A DNA stretch of 32,000 nt from Candidatus Electrothrix yaqonensis. Its GTDB lineage: Bacteria; Desulfobacterota; Desulfobulbia; Desulfobulbales; Desulfobulbaceae. Shown piece by piece: positions 1,115 to 26,531 of this stretch. The stretch spans positions 2,580,001 through 2,612,000 of the forward strand of contig CP178758.1 in the NCBI GenBank assembly GCA_047651235.1. The letters run 5' to 3'. Position 1 is the stretch's first letter; every line of letters begins with the position of its first letter. Under the pieces are notes generated by a model, which made no database searches, was not told the DNA's origin, and saw nothing but the letters and a program-made list of their open reading frames with translations. The translations under genes and the position numbers were made by a program.

Positions 1115-2729
1115 TAATTCTACTTTGTCAACCATAACCTTTTGATCTATTTGTAAAAACTTCTTGCAATATCCGGATAAAGTTGTATCTTTCATTAGGA
1201 AGATTTTATCGCTTTTTGATCAAGCTAGCACCTGATAACAGCTATCAAAAAAATACCCGTCAATCGCCCTGATTATAACTTTATTCTTTTTATGAACGCT
1301 CCCAGCCCCGAAAAAAGAAGTCCCCATGACAAATTCTTTGAGTTGACCGGCATCGCCCGGCAACTTACGTCTTTTCACGAAAGATATCATCATTTTTTTA
1401 AGAGACATACGGTAAGTTTGTCAGATAAAGCATTCCAATACTTGAAAGGTTTATTCCAGTCTGACAAAAAAACATGGAACGTATGGAGGAAAAGGTTCCG
1501 GGCGTTAAATATGAGCCCCTCCAGTATTTTCTTTCCGAATCGAACTGGGATTGGCGTCCTGTAAACAACCACGTAGCTAAAGATGCGGATAACATTTTTG
1601 GAGGAAAGGAAGATAGCGCTCTTTTTATTGATGAATCCGGGATACCCAAAAAGGGTAAAATGTCTGTTGGGGTTTCTCGTCAATGGTGCGGGCAGCTTGG
1701 TAAAACCGACAACTGTCAAGTAGTAGTGTTTGCAACTTTGGGATATGGTCGCTTTTCAACGCCGATCGACTGTCGGCTGTATTTACCGAAAAGCTGGACG
1801 GATGACAAGGAACGTTGTCTTAAGGCTAAGATTCCCGCCGACAAAATTGTTTTCAAAACAAAGCATGAACAGGCTCTTGACATGGTCTTCCATGCGCGAA
1901 AGAATGGCGTTCGTTTTAACTGGGTGGGTTGTGATGGTTTTTACGGGAAGAATTCTCAATTTCTTCGGAAACTTGATAATAACGATGAAAAGTTCATGGC
2001 AGATGTTCATAAAGACCAAATAATTTATAATTTATATTGAAGATCCCAACCCTGTCGTTCCAAAAGCAAAATCGAACAAAGGGAAACGCCCGAGCAAGCT
2101 CGAAGCACAAAAAGAAGGCATACGTGTTGATAAATGGGTGATGCAACAACTTAATAATGCATGGAAACGGGTGAAAGTTCGAAATACGACCAAAGGCAAA
2201 CTCATTGTGGATATTCTGCATAGGGAAGTGGCTATGGGACGGTAAAGAGGCTGAAGCAAGAAAATGGCATTTAGTTGTCAGACGTGAGGTTAAGTCCCCG
2301 AAAAAAATTAAATATAGCCTAAGTAATGCGGAAAGTAACACGTCAACAAGACGACTTGCATATATGCAAGCTCAACGATATTGGGTTGAACGGCCATTTC
2401 AGGATGCAAAAAATGAATGTGGAATGGGTGATTATCAGGCTCGGGGATGGCTGGCTTGGCATCATCATATGACTATGGTCATGATGGCCATGTTGTTTAT
2501 GGTCGAGCAACGATTATACCATCAAGTCGGTGTCCCGTTATTGAGTTGCGCTGATATAACAACATTACTCAAGTCAATTCTTCCACGTCGAGATGTAAAC
2601 GAAGATGAAGTTATAAGACAGCTTTGTCAACGGCATGAAAAGAGGCAAGCTTCGATTGATTTCGCATATGAGAAACAACGGAATTGCAAATTATTACCAC
2701 AGCCTTTGTGAGTGCCAAAGTAGAAATAA
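1115..2729 (+). mobile_element. IS701-family insertion sequence (about 1.6 kb), degenerate
   Basis: Imperfect terminal inverted repeats: the left end taattctactttgtcaacc matches the reverse complement of the right end, ttatttctactttggcac (shared core TTCTACTTTG). They enclose a DDE transposase split over several frames. No clear target-site duplication seen. Confidence 0.7.
1292..2711 (+). pseudogene. IS701-family DDE transposase disrupted by at least three frame changes
   Basis: Four pieces are colinear with IS701-type transposases. Piece 1: 1292-1564 (..AFQYLKGLFQSDKK). Piece 2: 1474-2040 (MERMEEKVPGVKYEPLQYFLSESNWDW..FIDESGIPKKGKMSVGVSRQWCGQLGKTDNCQVVVF..GCDGFYG). Piece 3: about 2040-2250. 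Piece 4: 2205-2711 (..KYSLSNA..RYWVERPFQDAKNECGMGDYQARGWLAWHHHMTMVMMA). The first break maps to an A7 run (1466-1472); the others lie near 2035 and 2230. Confidence 0.75.
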
Positions 2730-9603: not shown

Positions 9604-10740
9604 TCAGCTGAGTTTCATCGGCATGACGATTCCGAGGAACCCCGCATCCTCTTCCGAGGTAATCAGACACGGACTTTCGCTGGAGGAAATGGATGCCTGC
9701 ACCGTCTCCCCCTCCATAACCTGCAGGGCCTCGATGAAATAGCGGCAGTTGAAGCCCATAGACAGAGGTTCACCGCTGTACTCGATCTCGATCTCATCCC
9801 GTGCCGAGCCGAAATCGTTATTTTCCGAAGTCAGAATAAGACGGTTATTCTGCAGCTCAAATTTAATCGCGTGGAAGAGGTCTTCTGTAAACAGGTTGAT
9901 GCGCTTCAGGGACTCAAGAAAGGATCTTTTCGGAATCCGGATATTATTTTCTTGGGGAACCGCTTTGAGGATATTTTCAAAATCCGGAAATTCTCCCTCC
10001 ATGAGCCGGACAATCAGGATGGAATCGTCGCTTCTGAAAACAATCTTTTTCTGTTCCACACCGAACTGAAACTGATCCTGTTCTTCACCGAATTTTCGAA
10101 TCTGCTGGATACCGCGACGGGGGATCAGGATAAACCGGTCAAGATCAAGCGGCTCGGTTCCTTCTGCTGCTTCCCTGCGCATAATACTCAGGCGGTGGCC
10201 GTCCGAGGTCACCATTCTGAAGGCTATTTTTTCGTCTTCTCTAAGCTGCTGCAGAAGCGCAGCGTTGAGATTGTACATATTCTCTTTTTCCGTGGCTACA
10301 GAAAAGATGGTCTTATCGATCAGATCACAGATGACTTCCCCTTCCATATGCACCAGCGCCTGTTCATCGTATTCCTCGAACTGGGGAAATTCCTCAGCAG
10401 AAGTACCGGCCAGCCTGTAGGTGCTGCTGCCTGCTGTGATTCTGATCCAGCTTTTTTCCTCTTCCTGAAAATTGATGGTTGCGGAACCGGATTCACGGGC
10501 TAGCTCAAAAAGTTTTTTCGACGGGATGGTGATTGTACCCGGTTCAAAGACTTCTGCAGCTACGGTCTGGCGCAGACTTATGTCCAGATCGGTTGCAGTA
10601 AATACAATACTATCATGAGTTACCTCTATGAGGACATTGGACAGAATAGGAAGGGTTCCTTTTTTATTCGTTATGTGCTGCTGGGAACTGACAGCACGAA
10701 GCAGATCTTCCCGGGCAATATTGAAATGAAACGACATCAT
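9604..10740 (-). CDS. dnaN: DNA polymerase III beta subunit (sliding clamp)
   Basis: 378-aa ORF. MSFHFNIAREDLLRAVSSQQHITNKKGTLPILSNVLIEV.. is the canonical DnaN start, and the length and three-domain periodicity fit. Confidence 0.9.
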   Translation of the reverse strand: MMSFHFNIAREDLLRAVSSQQHITNKKGTLPILSNVLIEVTHDSIVFTATDLDISLRQTVAAEVFEPGTITIPSKKLFELARESGSATINFQEEEKSWIRITAGSSTYRLAGTSAEEFPQFEEYDEQALVHMEGEVICDLIDKTIFSVATEKENMYNLNAALLQQLREDEKIAFRMVTSDGHRLSIMRREAAEGTEPLDLDRFILIPRRGIQQIRKFGEEQDQFQFGVEQKKIVFRSDDSILIVRLMEGEFPDFENILKAVPQENNIRIPKRSFLESLKRINLFTEDLFHAIKFELQNNRLILTSENNDFGSARDEIEIEYSGEPLSMGFNCRYFIEALQVMEGETVQASISSSESPCLITSEEDAGFLGIVMPMKLS

Positions 10741-11023: not shown

Positions 11024-11677
11024 GGTAGTGGCTCAAACCCGTTGATCCATATTTTTTTATCTGATATATTGTTCCGTCATTATGGAACAGTATATCAAAA
11101 TAACGTGTCGGCATTGCAGTGCCGGGGATCTCGTGAAAAACGGGCGGAGCGAAAACGGGACACAGCGTTACCGCTGTAATGAGTGCGGAAAAAGTTTTCG
11201 GCATGAATACAGGTAAACGCATGGAAACCCGGTGTGAAAAATCAGATCGGACAACAGACTCTTAACAGTTCCGGAGTCGGAGATATCAGCGGGAATCTTA
11301 ATATCTCAAGGAATACCGTGCTGTTCGAGCTGAAAAAAACGCTCGCCGAAGTAAACCCTTATTTTACAGAGCGATCGGACAGTACGTCGGTCGGAATCGA
11401 GGTTGAAATAGGAACGGATGCGGAAGCCGACGAATTATGGAGTTATGTTGGGAATAAGAAAAATCAGAGATGGACATGGTACGCGATTGAAAGAAATACC
11501 GGTGTGATACTCGCATGGCGCAACGGGAGACGGACGGATAAAAGCTGCTCGCTCCTGATGGAAAAGCTTTCCGTATTCCCTGTAACCCGTTATTATACCG
11601 ACGATTGGCAACGCTACAGAAAATATATTCCTTCGGAACGCCATATCATCGGTAAAGCGGACGTTGAGAAGTTTTAA
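11024..11677 (+). pseudogene. IS1-family element relic: InsA zinc-finger ORF, a frame break, then a fused HTH-DDE reading frame truncated at the 3' end
   Basis: Candidate left end ggtagtggctc at 11024. The ORF at 11082-11216 (MEQYIKITCRHCSAGDLVKNGRSENGTQRYRCNECGKSFRHEYR*) resembles the InsA Zn finger. The ORF at 11234-11677 aligns with IS1 InsAB' (..GVGDISGNLNISRNTVLFELKK.., AEADELWSYVGNKKNQRWTWYA, YYTDDWQRY) but stops at IGKADVEKF*, about 60 codons before the expected C-terminus. No right inverted repeat was found. Confidence 0.7.
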
Positions 11678-15588: not shown

Positions 15589-16656
15589 TCATCCGCTATT
15601 CTTCTCTCGTCTTGCTTTATTAAGGGTGTCGAGAAAGTTTGCCAACCAATTCAAATCAATATTCTCTTCAGGAGAAACACCATTCAGTTGTTCCTCCCAT
15701 TTATCTATGAGCGGATCAGATGGACCTAAGAGTTTTTTCATTTCCTTCTTTACAGAATCTCTTTTAAGCAATTCAATCACCATGCTGATATCATTGAATA
15801 ACCAGTTATATGCATCTTTCCATCTGAAAAGATTAAGCTCGTCATTTGTAGGTTTAAGTTCTCTGACTGTTTTTGCTGGCCAATTCCGTCTTTTTGTATA
15901 CGCAAACATTGAGAATGTAAACCATTCATTTGCTACATTAAACAATTCATCGGGATTTTCGGAAAAGTATCCCTCCTCTTTAGCAAGGATTTGTAACCGT
16001 TCTCTAAACCAAACTGTAGCATGTTCTATATTTTCCTTTTTTTTAGTTATTATTAATGCTCTGTACTTGATTTGAGCTAAAGAAAAAGAGGTCATTTCCT
16101 GTAACAGCCTATAATGTTTGATGTTTGCTCTGGAATCTATACCCTCTTTACCTGCACTTGTATAAAGTGCGCGATGCTTCCTATACTCTTTGTCTGCCTC
16201 AATAAATTTATCACTGTCTATATAATCTAATATGTTCTTTTTTACATGATTATGGAATCTGCTGAAGTTTCTGAAGAAAATAAATTGAAGGCCGATTATA
16301 TTTCTCGCCGAGCCTTCTATCTTGTAAGGAGCCAATAAATAATTGGCAAGAGAGTCCTTGTTGTTATACTTCCATGATATTGTTGTATTTTGCTCCGATG
16401 GAATGTTTAAAAAAGTAAAGTTTCCCCCTTCATCTAGACTACTTGCTCGTGGCCCACTGTTATTTATCAATTTTATAACTATTTTTTCGTGATCAGGTGG
16501 TGACAGATCAATTGCCTTCCCATCTGGTGACAGATCAATTACCTTCCCATCTAACTTCATACTTGTTGCAGCGTAAATTAAAGAGCAGTCTGCAAATAAT
16601 ACTGATGTTATTATAATAATAGTCAAAATAACGCTATTTTTTGTAAAGATAAGCAT
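15589..16656 (-). CDS. Hypothetical exported or membrane-anchored protein (355 aa)
   Basis: SD-like gggggа-type purine run (gtgggggaccggaa) before the ATG at 16654-16656. N-terminal hydrophobic segment (VILTIIIITSVLFADCSLIYAA). Tandem 9-aa duplication DGKVIDLSP/DGKAIDLSP. Short beta-sandwich-like stretch (GGNFTFLNIPSEQ), then a W/F-rich helical C-terminal region. No family recognised. AT-rich. Confidence 0.6.
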   Translation of the reverse strand: MLIFTKNSVILTIIIITSVLFADCSLIYAATSMKLDGKVIDLSPDGKAIDLSPPDHEKIVIKLINNSGPRASSLDEGGNFTFLNIPSEQNTTISWKYNNKDSLANYLLAPYKIEGSARNIIGLQFIFFRNFSRFHNHVKKNILDYIDSDKFIEADKEYRKHRALYTSAGKEGIDSRANIKHYRLLQEMTSFSLAQIKYRALIITKKKENIEHATVWFRERLQILAKEEGYFSENPDELFNVANEWFTFSMFAYTKRRNWPAKTVRELKPTNDELNLFRWKDAYNWLFNDISMVIELLKRDSVKKEMKKLLGPSDPLIDKWEEQLNGVSPEENIDLNWLANFLDTLNKARREKNSG

Positions 16657-17287
16657 TTCCGGTCCCCCACGTTACGTATTCCATTTTTTGAAACTTAAAT
16701 GGTTTCGGTTCTTCATTTTTGCATCTTAATGAAAGATTTGTCATATCTAACTCTTTTTCTATCCAAACTGCACCCGATCCCCAAAGTCCTTTTTTTAAAG
16801 GAAGTTTATGAGATTGGTGGTTGTTCCCTCCTTTCCATCTTACAGTGAAGTCCTTACAAGAAATTTGATCATTCTCAAAGAAAAATACAGTTTTTCCATT
16901 TGAAGCAAGATGATTGGTAAATCCAGTTAGAGTTAATATAGAAGCAGTAAAAAAGATCCCTCCCGTAACCAAAGAAGAATATTCTTTCTTCAAGGAAAGC
17001 ATGATCATGAGCAAGACAAAAAAAGACAGTCCGCTTATAAGGGTAAAAATTGTCAATTTGGGAGAGTAAAAAGTATACGCATCCCCTGTCATTAATATAA
17101 GTAAATATATTACCCAGATAGATATTACATATATCACCGATGTCAGTGGCAGAAGCTGTTTATTTACGTTTATTGGCGATGCTTTAAACATCAGCGGTAT
17201 CAGACCCGATATACTCACGAAAATTGGCGGTAAGATCCCTGCAATATTATTGATAATTTCGACCATTTTAACACCCGCAGCTAGCAT
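16634..17287 (-). CDS. Hypothetical integral membrane protein (about 4 TM segments plus a soluble C-terminal domain of about 90 aa)
   Basis: 217-aa ORF with four long hydrophobic stretches, then ..FFFENDQISCKDFTVRWKGGNNHQSHKLPLKKGLWGSGAVWIEK... Overlaps the downstream gene by 23 nt and the upstream gene by 20 nt. The start could instead be the internal ATG (MVEIINN). Confidence 0.55.
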   Translation of the reverse strand: MLAAGVKMVEIINNIAGILPPIFVSISGLIPLMFKASPINVNKQLLPLTSVIYVISIWVIYLLILMTGDAYTFYSPKLTIFTLISGLSFFVLLMIMLSLKKEYSSLVTGGIFFTASILTLTGFTNHLASNGKTVFFFENDQISCKDFTVRWKGGNNHQSHKLPLKKGLWGSGAVWIEKELDMTNLSLRCKNEEPKPFKFQKMEYVTWGTGNAYLYKK

Positions 17288-23918: not shown

Positions 23919-24161
23919 TCAGCGTTTCCAGCCCGGCCTGTTTGGCCTCGGTGGCCTGCTGGCAGCCTGGGCATCTTCTGATGCCATAGTACCCTCAAGC
24001 TCGATGAGGAAATCAATATCGCTGCTCTCGTTGAAATTCTCCGTGAGCGCGCTGCCGAAAACGCTCAGACGCTTGACGCGGTATTTTTGACAGATGCCGG
24101 TGATCTTCTGCTGATACTTTTCAAGGGTGATCATATAATCGGCCTTCCGGTTGAGAAACAT
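23919..24161 (-). pseudogene. Nucleotidyltransferase (MNT-type antitoxin-like) fragment, 3'-truncated
   Basis: [46 protein letters not shown] carries the G-S-x(n)-D-x-D minimal nucleotidyltransferase motif. After ELEG the reading bears no resemblance to the family and runs into the rfbA upstream region. No HepT partner is present. Confidence 0.45.
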
Positions 24162-24912: not shown

Positions 24913-25258
24913 GTCATAGATAGCTGTTGTCAGATAAACTTTATTTGAGCAGCATGGCCCTGCCGCTTCCGCAGCATGATAAACAACTACTTTATGTTGC
25001 GGAAAATTTCAAGAGGAAACAGTGCGGTTTTCTCTTTTTCGGGTCAACATGAAGCAGAGGAACGGATGAAATAGGATTCGTTCCTGCAACCCGCCCCGCT
25101 GTGCCCCGTCAATGCGCGGTTTGGGGAATGGATGTGATACCGGCGGGGTCCTTTTTACATTACGATTTCGATTTTACATTTACTTTTTAAAGTTAATATG
25201 TTATATAGCTTTACACTAATCGATATAATATTACTTGTGACTTCGTGGAGGTATTCAA

Positions 25259-26353
25259 ATGGGTACGGCTGAACAAAGAAAGGATTTTTTAGAAGTTTAT
25301 AAGGATTATGTTTCGAATGTATTGCAGCCTACTAAGTGCGAAGTAAAAAACATCCTCAAGAAGTGGAAAAAGAAAGAAACTTGGAATGTAGAGGGTGATG
25401 TATTAGCTTACCCTTCCCCTATTAGTTGGTATGCTACTCGTATTAAAAGGCCGGAGTCGTTAGTTGACAAGATAACTAGTCAGACAGATACCTTCCCGGA
25501 TGGATTGGTTAAATCATCTCTTTGGATAATTAACGATGCTTTTGCTTGTAGAATCATTGTTTTTTGCTTGCAAGATTTAAGGCTGATACATGATATAATT
25601 ATGTCTTCAGATTTTTTTGACATTTCCCAGAAAGACGAGCCTTATGTCTTTGATTTAGATGAAAAGTTCATTGAAGCTTTGGGGCTGCAGAGGCTAAAAA
25701 GAAAAGGGAGAGATACCGGTTATACAGCGATACATTATATAGTTCGATTAAAAGAAAGTTCAGTTCCAATGTCAAAAAGACCTTGGTTTGAAATACAGGT
25801 TAAAACATTAGTTCAACATGCTTGGAGTGAAATTGAGCATTTGATTGGTTATAAACCAATAGGGTCTCTCTCTTCGTTATCAGAAAGCAAAAGGCAGCAG
25901 TTTAAAATTATCAGTTCTCATTTGAATGCAATTGATGAACATTTCAACTTGCTTTTTGAGGACGCCCTATTTAAACAGAAGACTGTTAAATATAATAGTG
26001 AAAGCATAATAACATCAGAGGCTTTACCAAAGATGTTGAGGAGCAAAGGTATAGTTTGTTCGCAGAATAAGATAGAAAAATCTATAAGGATATTTCGCAA
26101 TTATGGGATTTATAAAGTTAAGGATTTTGAAGGCGCTGTGACGATGGACCGGATAGAAATTATTAAAAATATATTTGAAGATATTTTAGGGTGCGCTCCA
26201 ACTTCTGATGATTTGATCGTTAACTTGGCATCCAGCAAAGAAATAGAGGATGATTCTCTTTTGCCTGATTTTATCAAAGTGCAGATAGCTTACAAATCTA
26301 CAAGTGATAAAATGAAAAGCATAAGGTGTGACTGTGATGAAAAGTCGAGCTAA
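25259..26353 (+). CDS. RelA/SpoT-domain (small alarmone synthetase-like nucleotidyltransferase) protein with an uncharacterised C-terminal extension of about 150 aa
   Basis: Synthetase-fold motifs are in order: RIKRPESLVDKI, INDAFACRIIV, GYTAIHYIV, FEIQVKTLVQHAWSEIEHLIGYK. There is no HD hydrolase or TGS/ACT region. SD ggaggt lies 7 nt before the ATG, with a perfect TATAAT at 25224-25229. The gene is visibly AT-rich relative to its flanks. Confidence 0.8.
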   Translation: MGTAEQRKDFLEVYKDYVSNVLQPTKCEVKNILKKWKKKETWNVEGDVLAYPSPISWYATRIKRPESLVDKITSQTDTFPDGLVKSSLWIINDAFACRIIVFCLQDLRLIHDIIMSSDFFDISQKDEPYVFDLDEKFIEALGLQRLKRKGRDTGYTAIHYIVRLKESSVPMSKRPWFEIQVKTLVQHAWSEIEHLIGYKPIGSLSSLSESKRQQFKIISSHLNAIDEHFNLLFEDALFKQKTVKYNSESIITSEALPKMLRSKGIVCSQNKIEKSIRIFRNYGIYKVKDFEGAVTMDRIEIIKNIFEDILGCAPTSDDLIVNLASSKEIEDDSLLPDFIKVQIAYKSTSDKMKSIRCDCDEKSS

Positions 26354-26381
26354 AAAGTAGTTCAAATTTGATCTGACAGAT

Positions 26382-26418
26382 ACCGGGTGCGTGCTTGGCG
26401 CGTTGTCCGGTTTTTTAT
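26382..26418 (+). terminator. Putative rho-independent terminator after the RelA/SpoT-domain gene
   Basis: Imperfect GC-rich hairpin accgggtgcg...cgcgttgtccggt followed by tttttt (26411-26416). Confidence 0.4.
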
Positions 26419-26531
26419 TCGCTGATCTGATAGAATTTCGATCCATGCGAACCGGAGTTGAAAACTCCAGCATATTTTCGTATGATGCAGCATCTCTGAT
26501 GTTTCCTTGTTCAACCTGTAATACCGGTTCT

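What the first reader, a model, noticed from the sequence alone, without database searches (positions are those of the whole stretch)
25140..26420. Stand-alone AT-rich RelA/SpoT-domain gene: candidate fused toxSAS (CapRel-like) defence protein with an unknown C-terminal domain
Seen in sequence: a 364-aa ORF carries the ordered synthetase-fold motifs RIKRPESLVDKI, INDAFACRIIV, GYTAIHYIV and FEIQVKTLVQHAWSEIEHLIGYK. It has no hydrolase or regulatory domains and ends in about 150 aa that I cannot assign. It forms a one-gene AT-rich islet with its own TATAAT, SD and terminator-like hairpin, wedged between a vapBC pair and a GC-rich housekeeping-type gene. No adjacent small ORF could serve as a separate antitoxin. 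Established knowledge: toxic small alarmone synthetases (FaRel, PhRel, CapRel and related) make (p)ppApp/(p)ppGpp or pyrophosphorylate tRNA 3' ends. CapRel-type proteins are single-chain toxin-antitoxin fusions of similar size whose C-terminal domain senses a phage protein. Inference: this may be a single-chain toxSAS whose C-terminal region is an autoinhibitory sensor domain of a type not yet described.
Basis: partly seen in the sequence, partly recalled or inferred. Interest (0 to 1): 0.7.

Follow-up and report, generated by a model that had tools for sequence, protein, structure and literature searches.

The report
Stand-alone alarmone synthetase with unknown tail
This is an intact, recently acquired gene in a cable bacterium for a RelQ/RelP-like small alarmone synthetase joined to a conserved helical domain of unknown fold. 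It belongs to a rare, uncharacterised family that resembles single-chain immune enzymes such as CapRel only in outline, and nothing here shows that it is a toxin or a phage defence.

Summary
Window 25259-26353 (+) encodes a 364-aa protein with a RelA_SpoT synthetase domain (Pfam 1.4e-13) and every catalytic residue. It is the only gene in a 1.2-kb AT-rich islet (GC 0.35 against 0.56). The host is Candidatus Electrothrix sp. YB6.

The CapRel reading is only partly supported.
- The catalytic half is much closer to the (p)ppGpp synthetases RelQ/RelP (profile E 1e-18, TM 0.76-0.80) than to CapRel (1e-6). FaRel2 gave only weak fold matches.
- The C-terminal ~120 aa are all alpha-helical. CapRel has a beta-sheet pseudo-zinc-finger there.
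- This tail is well conserved (47% mean pairwise identity), not hypervariable.
- It has no Pfam, PDB or viral-structure relative.

The family is rare (56 representatives among 1.84 billion) and scattered across many phyla. No partner gene is conserved, and the immediate neighbours of homologues are mostly housekeeping genes. A few copies sit beside integrases, transposases or toxin-antitoxin genes, and one sits in a prophage-like contig.

A much larger sister family of stand-alone ~350-aa synthetases shares the linker helix and the first half of the tail.

Best guess (0.4): a self-regulated alarmone synthetase that makes (p)ppGpp-type nucleotides, with the tail as a cis regulatory or sensor module. 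Toxicity, trigger and product are untested.

The parts
25259..26353 (+). CDS for a 364-aa two-domain small alarmone synthetase, stop codon included. It is identical to NCBI ACL93V_12280 of Candidatus Electrothrix sp. YB6.
   Evidence: ORF list. 100% match to P0001. Pfam RelA_SpoT. AlphaFold2 model with mean pLDDT 92.1 and pTM 0.86.
25259..25408 (+). N-terminal region, residues 1-50. It holds a long helix (residues 4-38) with conserved aromatic residues F10, Y14, Y17, W36 and W42.
   Evidence: Secondary structure. Conservation. Mean pairwise identity 35%.
25409..25858 (+). SYNTH catalytic core, residues 51-200. R61 and R98 are the adenine-sandwich arginines. K63, S67 and K71 are the phosphate-binding residues. 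D93 and E178 are the Mg2+ ligands. Y155 is the G-loop tyrosine, and H159 is also conserved.
   Evidence: Pfam. Alignment to RelQ. 100% conservation of these residues in the family, except S67 (majority residue in only 52%) and Y155 (99%). Foldseek match to RelQ/RelP. Residue roles come from PMC7983052 and PMC11782079.
25859..25993 (+). Linker, residues 201-245, containing one long helix (207-242) with the conserved motif AIDEHFNLL. In the profile alignment it corresponds to the C-terminal helix of RelQ.
   Evidence: The A1 profile aligns to RelQ through position 243. Mean pairwise identity 55%.
25994..26350 (+). C-terminal all-alpha domain, residues 246-364, with six helices. Its fold and function are unassigned. 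The core (246-330) is conserved and the last ~35 residues are variable.
   Evidence: Domain-only model with pLDDT 92.5. No Pfam match. No Foldseek match in PDB or BFVD. No PDB sequence match. Conservation. Its first half is weakly homologous to the tail of sister family A5 (hhalign probability 77%, E 2e-5).
25247..25251 (+). Shine-Dalgarno sequence GGAGG, 7 nt upstream of the ATG.
   Evidence: Read from the sequence.
25224..25229 (+). TATAAT, a candidate -10 element. It has no convincing -35 element and is not distinguishable from chance in AT-rich DNA.
   Evidence: Sequence. The promoter scan found as many sites as the shuffled control.
26378..26418 (+). GC-rich hairpin followed by TTTTTTATT, a probable intrinsic terminator. 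It lies in the GC-normal DNA just past the islet.
   Evidence: RNA fold with dG -19 kcal/mol and z = -2.0.
25154..26378 (.). AT-rich islet of about 1.2 kb that contains only this gene and its leader. It is inferred to be a recent horizontal insertion.
   Evidence: Composition. The equivalent site in related contigs L101 and L102 holds different cargo.
25136..25153 (+). Left copy of an imperfect 18-nt direct repeat (GATACCGGCGGGGTCCTT) that abuts the islet. It may be a junction or target duplication, or it may be chance.
   Evidence: the repeat finder family D2. The first 8 nt match exactly.
26379..26396 (+). Right copy of the direct repeat (GATACCGGGTGCGTGCTT), directly after the islet and inside the terminator hairpin.
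   Evidence: the repeat finder family D2, 78% identity to the left copy.

Best explanation
The gene encodes an accessory, horizontally acquired small alarmone synthetase. It has a complete RelQ/RelP-type unit: an N-terminal helix, the SYNTH core and a C-terminal helix. A conserved ~120-aa helical domain is appended to that unit.

Proposed mechanism:
- The SYNTH core binds ATP between R61 and R98.
- With Mg2+ held by D93 and E178, it transfers the beta-gamma pyrophosphate to the 3'-OH of a purine nucleotide stacked on Y155.
- The acceptor is most likely GDP or GTP, giving (p)ppGpp.
- The appended domain works in cis as a regulatory or sensor module. It keeps the enzyme off, through contacts within the protein or control of oligomerisation, until a conserved cue is met.
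- The resulting alarmone burst slows or arrests growth.

What is shown and what is inferred:
- Shown: fold, catalytic residues, domain architecture, absence of a partner gene, rarity and patchiness, recent acquisition here.
- Inferred: the product, the regulatory role of the tail, the trigger, and any role in phage defence.
For: **Catalysis.** Pfam RelA_SpoT. All catalytic residues are invariant in 103 sequences. The family's G-loop motif KESGY is identical to that of RelQ.

**Affinity to (p)ppGpp synthetases.** The profile matches RelQ/RelP at E 3e-18 to 3e-14 and CapRel at 1e-6. FaRel2 and Tas1 are not detected. Foldseek gives E 3e-9 and TM 0.76-0.80 for RelQ/RelP. FaRel2 complexes reach only E about 5e-3 with TM 0.2-0.4.

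**Tail under selection.** The tail is confidently folded. Its core has 47% mean pairwise identity, against 55% for SYNTH. Full-model pTM of 0.86 suggests a defined packing of the two halves.

**Single-gene unit.** No neighbour is conserved in 81 loci. The most widespread neighbour cluster occurs in 11 loci and lies more than 1 kb away. No small ORF is conserved either.

**Accessory and mobile character.**
- 56 representatives at E<=1e-30 among 1.84 billion proteins.
- 108 hits among the representative genomes of 185,579 species, spread across many phyla.
- 17 of 79 copies have GC more than 5 points below their flanks.
- Copies lie beside integrases, transposases, HipA or PIN genes.
- One copy is on a plasmid. 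One is in a prophage-like contig between a repressor/ImmA-like module and an integrase.
- Pseudogenised copies exist.
- The window copy sits in a hotspot that holds a restriction-enzyme fragment or RhuM genes in related contigs.

**Precedent.** Pag1B/GRel has a SYNTH domain, a helical linker and a C-terminal domain. It makes pppGpp as an abortive-infection effector (bioRxiv 10.64898/2026.04.06.716658).
Against: - There is no biochemical or genetic evidence for the product, toxicity or regulation.
- Sequence closeness to RelQ/RelP does not fix acceptor specificity.
- I had no model coordinates, so I could not check whether the tail covers the active site.
- Most homologues lie among housekeeping genes with host-like GC. 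This fits a plain stress-signalling enzyme as well as it fits a conflict system.
- The tail has no recognisable ligand-binding or protein-binding fold.
Confidence: 0.4

Rival explanations
1. One reading: a CapRel-type single-chain toxin-antitoxin. The N-terminal toxSYNTH domain pyrophosphorylates tRNA 3'-CCA ends. The C-terminal domain autoinhibits it until a phage protein binds, and the result is abortive infection.
For: - Its size (364 aa against 373 aa) and its N-catalytic, C-accessory layout match CapRel.
- It is a stand-alone gene with no partner.
- CapRel is a detectable though distant relative.
- It is a recent acquisition next to vapBC, in a hotspot with restriction-enzyme and RhuM cargo in relatives.
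- One homologue sits near a prophage integrase.
- The SYNTH half is mildly basic, with a median pI of 9.0.
Against: - The tail is all-alpha, with no three-stranded sheet or pseudo-ZFD.
- The tail is conserved rather than diversifying.
- The SYNTH domain is far closer to the non-toxic (p)ppGpp synthetases.
- No unfused two-gene relatives exist.
- Homologues are not enriched in defence islands. No full-length family member was found among 50,697 phage records.
Confidence: 0.12
2. An ordinary, non-toxic stress-signalling small alarmone synthetase, a functional analogue of RelQ/RelP/RelV. It tops up (p)ppGpp under some condition. The extra domain serves oligomerisation, localisation or small-molecule allostery. 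It plays no part in genetic conflict.
For: - RelQ/RelP are the closest solved relatives, and the match covers the whole RelQ unit including the terminal helices.
- The G-loop is identical.
- The immediate neighbours of homologues are mostly housekeeping or transport genes.
- GC tracks the host in most loci, with a median difference of -0.024.
- Local synteny is kept within some clades: Flavobacteriaceae L056-L058, Gemmatimonadaceae L068/L071/L073 and Acidobacteriota L006/L011/L017/L054.
- The tail is conserved.
Against: - The family is extremely rare and patchy, which is unlike a housekeeping enzyme.
- There is no family-wide synteny.
- Copies have strongly atypical GC in the window and in 16 other loci.
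- Several copies lie next to integrases or transposases, one lies in a prophage-like contig, and some are pseudogenes.
- The window copy is a 1.2-kb foreign islet beside toxin-antitoxin genes.
Confidence: 0.28
3. A PANGU-like effector. The enzyme rests as an inactive homotetramer and is switched on in trans by a host protein encoded elsewhere, such as a nucleoid-associated protein, which binds the C-terminal domain.
For: - It has the same three-part plan as Pag1B/GRel: SYNTH, a long helical linker and a C-terminal domain (bioRxiv 10.64898/2026.04.06.716658).
- The RelQ-type terminal helices that mediate tetramerisation in RelQ/RelP are retained (PMC11782079).
- The tail is mildly acidic, with a median net charge of -2 and pI 5.5.
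- A conserved tail fits a conserved host partner.
Against: - No YejK-like or any other conserved neighbouring gene exists in 81 loci, nor in the sister family. PANGU is defined as a two-gene operon.
- The tail is only weakly acidic, not a DNA mimic.
- Homology to Pag1B could not be tested because no Pag1B sequence was available.
Confidence: 0.08

Closest known systems
RelQ / RelP (SAS1/SAS2; YjbM, YwaC), the small (p)ppGpp synthetases of Firmicutes (PDB 5DEC, 5DED, 6EWZ, 6FGK)
   Same: - They are the best sequence and fold matches. The profile E-value is 3e-18 to 3e-14. Foldseek gives E 3e-9 and TM 0.76-0.80 over about 230 columns.
- The catalytic residues and the KESGY G-loop are identical.
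- The match covers the terminal helices that form the RelQ/RelP oligomer interface.
   Different: - RelQ/RelP are 210-230 aa and have no extra domain. This protein adds about 120 aa of helical domain.
- RelQ/RelP are widespread in Firmicutes (PMC3153485). This family is rare and scattered across phyla.
- Identity is only 15-21%.
[quoted passage not shown]
   Same: - It is a single polypeptide of similar length, with an N-terminal RelA/SpoT synthetase and a C-terminal accessory domain.
- It needs no partner gene.
- The G-loop tyrosine happens to carry the same number, Y155.
   Different: - The CapRel tail is a pseudo-zinc-finger with a three-stranded beta-sheet plus anchor helices, and it is the least conserved region (PMC9712102). 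Here the tail is all-alpha and conserved.
- Sequence and fold similarity are weak (E 1e-6; TM 0.36-0.40, rmsd 18-20 A).
- CapRel modifies tRNA. Nothing here points to tRNA.
Pag1B / GRel, the effector of type I PANGU (bioRxiv 10.64898/2026.04.06.716658)
   Same: - It has the same architecture: a SYNTH domain, an alpha-helical linker and a C-terminal domain, at about 340-350 aa.
- It is a pppGpp-making growth-arrest effector, and its isolated SYNTH domain is not toxic.
   Different: - Pag1B is always paired with a YejK-like nucleoid protein gene, and its tail is a strongly acidic DNA mimic.
- This family has no conserved partner and only a mildly acidic tail.
- Direct homology was not testable here.
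An uncharacterised sister family of stand-alone ~340-370-aa RelA/SpoT-domain proteins (alignment A5), found in Bacillus cereus, Paenibacillus, Clostridium and Bacteroidota
   Same: - The SYNTH domain, the linker helix and the first half of the tail align. hhalign gives probability 99.7% over residues 53-308. The tail alone gives probability 77% and E 2e-5.
- These proteins are also single genes with no conserved partner.
- They show the same RelQ-over-CapRel preference.
   Different: - The sister family is much larger, with at least 1270 clusters.
- The examples inspected sit in resolvase, integrase or IS66 islands.
- The second half of the tail does not align.
- No function is published for it either, as far as the library searches show.
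PADLOC candidate PDC-S33
   Same: It is the only PADLOC model hit (E 4.5e-12, 44 bits). It is a single-gene candidate of similar profile length (349 positions).
   Different: The match covers only the catalytic part (profile positions 67-215 of 349) at a low score. The sister family scores 54-72 bits, also only partially. No paper in the library mentions PDC-S33.

Membership tests
RelA/SpoT homologue (RSH) synthetase domain, PF04607 | Profile match above the curated threshold | tested here: met
   E 1.4e-13, 51.5 bits against a cutoff of 27, residues 60-199.
RelA/SpoT homologue (RSH) synthetase domain, PF04607 | Catalytic set: two arginines that sandwich the adenine, basic and serine residues for the triphosphate, the Mg2+-binding Asp and Glu, and the G-loop Tyr | tested here: met
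   R61, R98, K63, S67, K71, D93, E178 and Y155 align to RelQ R46, R77, K48, S52, K56, D72, E139 and Y116. They are 99-100% conserved in 103 family members, except S67, which is the majority residue in only 52%. The RelQ numbering comes from my own knowledge and from PMC7983052 and PMC11782079.
RelA/SpoT homologue (RSH) synthetase domain, PF04607 | SYNTH fold | tested here: met
   Model pLDDT 92. Foldseek probability 1.00 and TM 0.76-0.80 to RelQ/RelP.
Small alarmone synthetase (SAS) | SYNTH domain without an HD hydrolase, TGS or ACT domain | tested here: met
   PF04607 is the only Pfam domain, and the protein has 364 aa.
CapRel (fused toxSAS) | C-terminal pseudo-zinc-finger antitoxin domain: a three-stranded beta-sheet plus helix, with anchor helices | tested here: not met
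   Residues 246-364 form six helices and no sheet. The overall TM to 7ZTB is 0.36-0.40 with rmsd 18-20 A. The tail-only model finds no CapRel chain.
CapRel (fused toxSAS) | toxSYNTH domain groups with CapRel/PhRel rather than with housekeeping SAS | tested here: not met
   Profile E is 1e-6 to CapRel and 3e-18 to RelQ/RelP. No tree against the published subfamily HMMs could be made.
CapRel (fused toxSAS) | The C-terminal sensor is the least conserved, diversifying region | tested here: not met
   The tail core has 47% mean pairwise identity, against 55% for SYNTH and 35% for the N-terminal helix.
CapRel (fused toxSAS) | The N-terminal half is toxic, is neutralised by the C-terminal half and is activated by a phage protein. 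tRNA is pyrophosphorylated. | not testable with these tools
   This needs expression, phage challenge and biochemistry.
Bicistronic toxSAS toxin-antitoxin modules (FaRel, FaRel2, PhRel, PhRel2) | A conserved adjacent, often overlapping, antitoxin gene | tested here: not met
   No neighbour cluster occurs in more than 11 of 81 loci, and none lies within 1 kb. No small ORF (25-160 aa) is conserved. No tandem repeats or Rfam RNA lie near the window gene.
RelQ/RelP housekeeping SAS | Single-domain protein of about 210-230 aa | tested here: not met
   The protein has 364 aa with an additional conserved domain of about 120 aa.
RelQ/RelP housekeeping SAS | Homotetramer with allosteric control by pppGpp or RNA | not testable with these tools
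   The terminal helices are retained, but no multimer prediction or model coordinates were available.
PANGU type I (Pag1A-Pag1B/GRel) | Operon partner encoding a YejK-like nucleoid-associated protein | tested here: not met
   No neighbour is conserved. No such family appears among the Pfam hits listed for 131 immediate neighbours (only the first 25 of 139 families are shown) or in the annotated loci.
PANGU type I (Pag1A-Pag1B/GRel) | SYNTH domain, helical linker and acidic DNA-mimicking C-terminal domain | tested here: inconclusive
   The three-part layout is present. The tail is only mildly acidic, with a net charge of -2 in the window protein and as the family median, and pI about 5.2-5.5. 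No Pag1B sequence or structure was available for comparison.
PADLOC PDC-S33 | Full-length match to the model | tested here: not met
   44 bits, covering profile positions 67-215 of 349 only.

The most novel reading that the evidence does not exclude
The protein and its much larger sister family would be an undescribed class of single-gene immune or stress switches. A RelQ-like alarmone synthetase would be gated in cis by a new all-alpha sensor domain. That domain would recognise a conserved cue, either a host-integrity signal or a conserved phage component, and not a fast-evolving phage protein. Growth would be shut down through (p)ppGpp or (p)ppApp, with no antitoxin and no partner gene.
Probability: 0.25. 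Interest if true: 0.7.

Novelty: new variant of a known kind. Interest (0 to 1): 0.45.

Why it matters
Small alarmone synthetases are now known to work both as stress regulators and as weapons: toxSAS toxins, CapRel, and PANGU's Pag1B. In each characterised case, what controls the enzyme is the interesting part.

This gene is a clean, single-gene example of a RelQ-like core carrying an accessory domain that matches nothing in Pfam, the PDB or the viral structure set. It also links to a sister family of more than a thousand stand-alone proteins in Bacillus, Paenibacillus, Clostridium and Bacteroidota, for which the literature searches run here turned up no published function.

Working out what the tail senses would add a third control logic for these enzymes. 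It would also show whether (p)ppGpp-type signalling is commonly mobilised between phyla as a portable growth brake.

If the protein proves to be an ordinary stress enzyme, the finding is modest. It would then be a new SAS subfamily with a new regulatory domain, present in a cable bacterium by horizontal transfer.

Tried and rejected
1. **CapRel membership: rejected.** See the membership rows.
2. **A separate antitoxin: none found.**
   - All-vs-all clustering of neighbour ORFs of at least 55 aa within 5 kb found nothing conserved.
   - The same was true for ORFs of 25-160 aa within 700 bp.
   - There is no RNA candidate either: no Rfam hit, tRNA or tandem repeat.
3. **Natural split versions with the tail as a separate protein: rejected.**
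   - A profile of the tail found 17 short proteins.
   - The four with the longest contigs were inspected. They were an in-frame-stop copy (L088), a frameshifted copy (L091), a 5'-truncated copy (L090) and a contig-end fragment (L089).
4. **Tail as an RNA polymerase alpha-CTD or helix-hairpin-helix domain: rejected.** This was a lead from my memory of the motif 'SRGIxTVGDL'. hhalign gave probability 0.6%. No HhH, SAP or alpha-CTD Pfam family recurred among 28 tails at E<=1.
5. **Fold assignment of the tail: nothing found.**
   - Foldseek against the PDB gave a best E of 1.4.
   - Foldseek against BFVD gave a best E of 0.35.
6. **Defence-island association: not supported.** Pfam and PADLOC scans of 131 immediate neighbours showed mostly housekeeping genes. 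This was a crude test: my own ORF calling, nearest neighbours only, no background model.
8. **Assignment to the published RSH subfamilies (Atkinson 2011, Jimmy 2020): not possible.** No supplementary tables are held and the HMMs are not in the libraries.
9. **An empty insertion site in relatives: not found.** Contigs L101 and L102 keep M48-RsmJ synteny but carry different cargo upstream.
10. **Promoter claim:** the number of consensus sites equals the chance expectation.
Full report
**1. The observation**

Window 25259..26353 (+) is a 364-aa ATG-initiated ORF. Pfam finds one domain, RelA_SpoT (PF04607), at residues 60-199 with E 1.4e-13 and 51.5 bits against a cutoff of 27. NCBIfam gives only a sub-threshold match to the YjbM-type GTP diphosphokinase.

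The protein is identical to a hypothetical protein of Candidatus Electrothrix sp. YB6, a cable bacterium.

The gene has GC 0.35 in a 0.56 background. The AT-rich segment, about 25154-26378, contains nothing else.

The expression signals are as follows.
- A GGAGG lies 7 nt before the ATG.
- TATAAT is present at 25224-25229. The promoter-like site count in the region equals the shuffled expectation, so it carries no weight.
- A GC-rich hairpin with a T-run follows the stop codon (dG -19 kcal/mol, z = -2.0).

The neighbours are as follows.
- Upstream: a PIN (VapC) gene with an overlapping 79-aa ORF, and a truncated nucleotidyltransferase fragment.
- Further upstream: rfbA and rfbD.
- Downstream: an M48 lipoprotein peptidase, an RsmJ-type methyltransferase and formate-tetrahydrofolate ligase.

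**2. Anatomy**

With a 103-sequence alignment, AlphaFold2 gives a confident model (pLDDT 92.1, pTM 0.86). It has four parts.
- A long N-terminal helix, residues 4-38.
- The alpha/beta SYNTH core, residues 55-196.
- One long helix, residues 207-242.
- A bundle of six helices, residues 256-361.

Alignment to RelQ and family conservation show the full catalytic set.
- R61 and R98 are the arginines that sandwich the ATP adenine.
- K63, S67 and K71 bind the phosphates.
- D93 and E178 hold the Mg2+.
- Y155 in the G-loop stacks on the acceptor base.
- H159 is also conserved.

All are 99-100% conserved in the family, except S67, which is the majority residue in only 52% of sequences. The residue roles come from PMC7983052 and PMC11782079.

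The window protein and its closest relative P0002 (63% identity) share several substitutions at positions that are otherwise at least 93% conserved: K151R, R182K, L236A, R282Y, A321V and W349S. This marks a maintained subclade, not decay.

**3. Which synthetase it resembles**

Foldseek of the full model puts RelQ/RelP first, with E 3e-9 to 1e-7 and TM 0.76-0.80 normalised to the target. CapRel follows at E 1e-6 with TM 0.36-0.40 and rmsd 18-20 A. The FaRel2 complexes reach only E about 5e-3.

A profile of the family against all PDB sequences gives the same order. RelQ/RelP score 3e-18 to 3e-14 and CapRel scores 1e-6. FaRel2, Tas1 and the long RSHs are not detected. The RelQ alignment runs to profile position 243. 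The protein therefore contains a whole RelQ-type unit, including the C-terminal helix that takes part in RelQ/RelP oligomerisation (PMC11782079), plus about 120 extra residues.

**4. The C-terminal domain**

The domain gave no match in any search.
- No Pfam match for the window sequence at E<=10.
- No recurrent Pfam family among 28 diverse tails at E<=1.
- No PDB sequence match.
- A domain-only model (pLDDT 92.5) has no Foldseek match in the PDB (best E 1.4) or in BFVD (best E 0.35).
- An alpha-CTD or helix-hairpin-helix idea failed hhalign, with probability 0.6%.

The domain is nevertheless under clear constraint. Its core (246-330) has 47% mean pairwise identity, against 55% for SYNTH and 55% for the linker. 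Only the last ~35 residues are variable. It is mildly acidic, with net charge -2 and pI 5.2 in the window protein and a family median pI of 5.5. This is the opposite of CapRel, whose pseudo-ZFD contains a three-stranded sheet and is the least conserved part of the protein (PMC9712102).

**5. The family and its contexts**

The word-indexed search found 105 full-length relatives of 333-408 aa at 32-63% identity, all carrying PF04607 only. The exhaustive search of 1.84 billion representatives found 56 at E<=1e-30.

In the species-representative genomes, 108 loci were found among 185,579 species. They span Acidobacteriota, Bacteroidota, Planctomycetota, Gemmatimonadota, Desulfobacterota, Gamma- and Zetaproteobacteria, Coriobacteriia, Calditrichota and others. 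The family is rare and patchy.

Neighbourhood analysis of 81 loci gave these results.
- No conserved partner exists. The most widespread neighbour cluster occurs in 11 loci and never lies within 1 kb.
- No small ORF is conserved.
- The tail-only proteins found with a tail profile were checked for the four with the longest contigs. They are an in-frame-stop copy, a frameshifted copy, a truncated copy and a contig-end fragment. No natural two-gene version exists.
- GC mostly tracks the host, with a median difference of -0.024. In 17 of 79 loci it is more than 5 points lower.
- The immediate neighbours of 66 non-redundant loci (131 ORFs) are chiefly transporters, central-metabolism enzymes and regulators.
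- Only a few of those neighbours look like defence genes. Strong PADLOC hits were single occurrences, among them one restriction enzyme, one ThsB-like protein, one kinase and one mad6.

Some copies do lie in mobile contexts.
- One is next to an integrase.
- One lies between transposases, an integrase and hipBA.
- A truncated copy lies near PIN and Fic genes.
- One is on a Persicobacter plasmid.
- One is in an IMG/VR contig between an XRE/ImmA-like module and the integrase.
- No full-length copy occurs in 50,697 phage records.

**6. The window locus as a hotspot**

Two metagenomic contigs carry an M48 peptidase 76-78% identical to the window's and keep M48-RsmJ synteny. Each has different cargo immediately upstream.
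- L101 has the C-terminal half of a type II restriction enzyme.
- L102 has two RhuM-family genes.

The window's vapBC plus synthetase therefore occupy a variable spot. An imperfect 18-nt direct repeat, GATACCGG..., abuts both ends of the AT-rich islet. It could mark the junction, but an 8-nt exact match is not rare by chance.

**7. A larger sister family**

Weak hits in the exhaustive search were proteins of 340-375 aa. Seven of them (alignment A5) align to this family from the SYNTH core through the linker into the tail. hhalign gives probability 99.7% over query residues 53-308. For the tails alone it gives probability 77% and E 2e-5 over 59 columns.

That family has at least 1270 clusters at 90% identity. 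Members occur in Bacillus cereus, Paenibacillus, Clostridium and Mucilaginibacter. It shows the same RelQ-over-CapRel preference. Its members are also stand-alone. In the examples inspected they sit in resolvase, integrase or IS66 islands, or next to DUF4435 and P-loop NTPase genes. None has a YejK-like neighbour. PADLOC's candidate PDC-S33 matches both families only over the catalytic part, at 44-72 bits.

**8. Interpretation**

Shown:
- It is an intact, catalytically complete, RelQ-like pyrophosphokinase.
- It carries a conserved appended domain of unassigned fold.
- It is encoded as a single-gene unit.
- The family is rare and horizontally scattered, and the window copy was acquired recently.

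Inferred:
- It makes a nucleotide alarmone, most likely (p)ppGpp. This rests on its affinity to guanosine-specific synthetases and on the identical G-loop.
- The tail regulates the enzyme in cis.

There is a precedent for a synthetase with a linker and a C-terminal domain acting as a pppGpp-producing abortive-infection effector. This is Pag1B/GRel (bioRxiv 10.64898/2026.04.06.716658). That system needs an adjacent nucleoid-protein gene, which is absent here.

The evidence does not separate a growth-arrest or defence switch from a plain stress-signalling enzyme.
- Rarity, patchiness, atypical GC, mobile-element neighbours and the hotspot favour the first.
- Housekeeping neighbours, host-like GC in most loci and the conserved tail favour the second.

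The CapRel-type reading, a tRNA-modifying enzyme gated by a phage protein, is the least supported of the three main options.

**9. Novelty and score**

The library searches turned up no paper that describes this family or its tail. Assignment to the published SAS subfamilies could not be tested. I rate it a new variant of a known kind: a small alarmone synthetase with a regulatory appendage.

Interest is moderate, at 0.45. The new domain and the link to a large uncharacterised family are worth an experiment. The defence claim that made the finding attractive is not backed by the genomic context.

Noticed in passing
window 24913-26531, compared with L101:1-2020 and L102:1-5857: The site just upstream of the M48 peptidase gene is a variable hotspot in related cable-bacterium contigs. 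L101 carries half of a type II restriction enzyme next to purC. L102 carries two RhuM-family genes. The window carries vapBC plus the synthetase.
   Followed up: partly
window 25136-25153 and 26379-26396: An imperfect 18-nt direct repeat (the first 8 nt, GATACCGG, match exactly) abuts both ends of the AT-rich islet. It may be an insertion junction or it may be chance.
   Followed up: partly
window 23919-24161 (-): An 80-aa fragment of a nucleotidyltransferase (Polbeta/NTP_transf_2, MNT-like) lies next to vapBC. It is probably the remnant of another toxin-antitoxin module.
   Followed up: no
window 15589-17287 (-): A 2.4-kb AT-rich islet (GC about 0.34) holds two overlapping ORFs of 355 and 217 aa. 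Neither has a Pfam or PADLOC match. It lies between recC and an outer-membrane efflux gene.
   Followed up: partly
window 1474-2040 (+) and 11234-11677 (+): Transposase fragments (DDE_5 and IS1) sit in other AT-rich patches. The region as a whole is a mosaic of backbone and foreign DNA.
   Followed up: no
window 9604-10740 (-): A DnaN-like beta-clamp gene (all three clamp domains, moderate scores) in lower-GC DNA beside the IS1 fragment and recC. I did not determine whether it is the housekeeping dnaN or an extra copy.
   Followed up: no
P0228, P0279, P0346 and the other A5 members; loci L094-L100: A large family (at least 1270 clusters) of stand-alone 340-370-aa RelA/SpoT proteins occurs in Bacillus cereus, Paenibacillus, Clostridium and Bacteroidota. 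It shares the linker and the first half of the tail with this family. The examples inspected lie in resolvase, integrase or IS66 islands. The library searches run here turned up no published function for it.
   Followed up: partly
L088:3455-4519, L091:3070-4334, L090:2003-2632: Family members inactivated by an in-frame stop, a frameshift and a 5' truncation. The truncated copy lies beside PIN and Fic genes.
   Followed up: yes
L110:5724-11134: A family member in an IMG/VR contig lies between an XRE-repressor/ImmA-like protease pair and the integrase. This is the usual position for prophage accessory cargo.
   Followed up: partly
L093:4662-7092 (Cetobacterium somerae megaplasmid): A distant 303-aa relative that aligns into the tail region lies directly upstream of a polyphosphate:AMP phosphotransferase gene. 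This could hint at a link to nucleotide metabolism.
   Followed up: no
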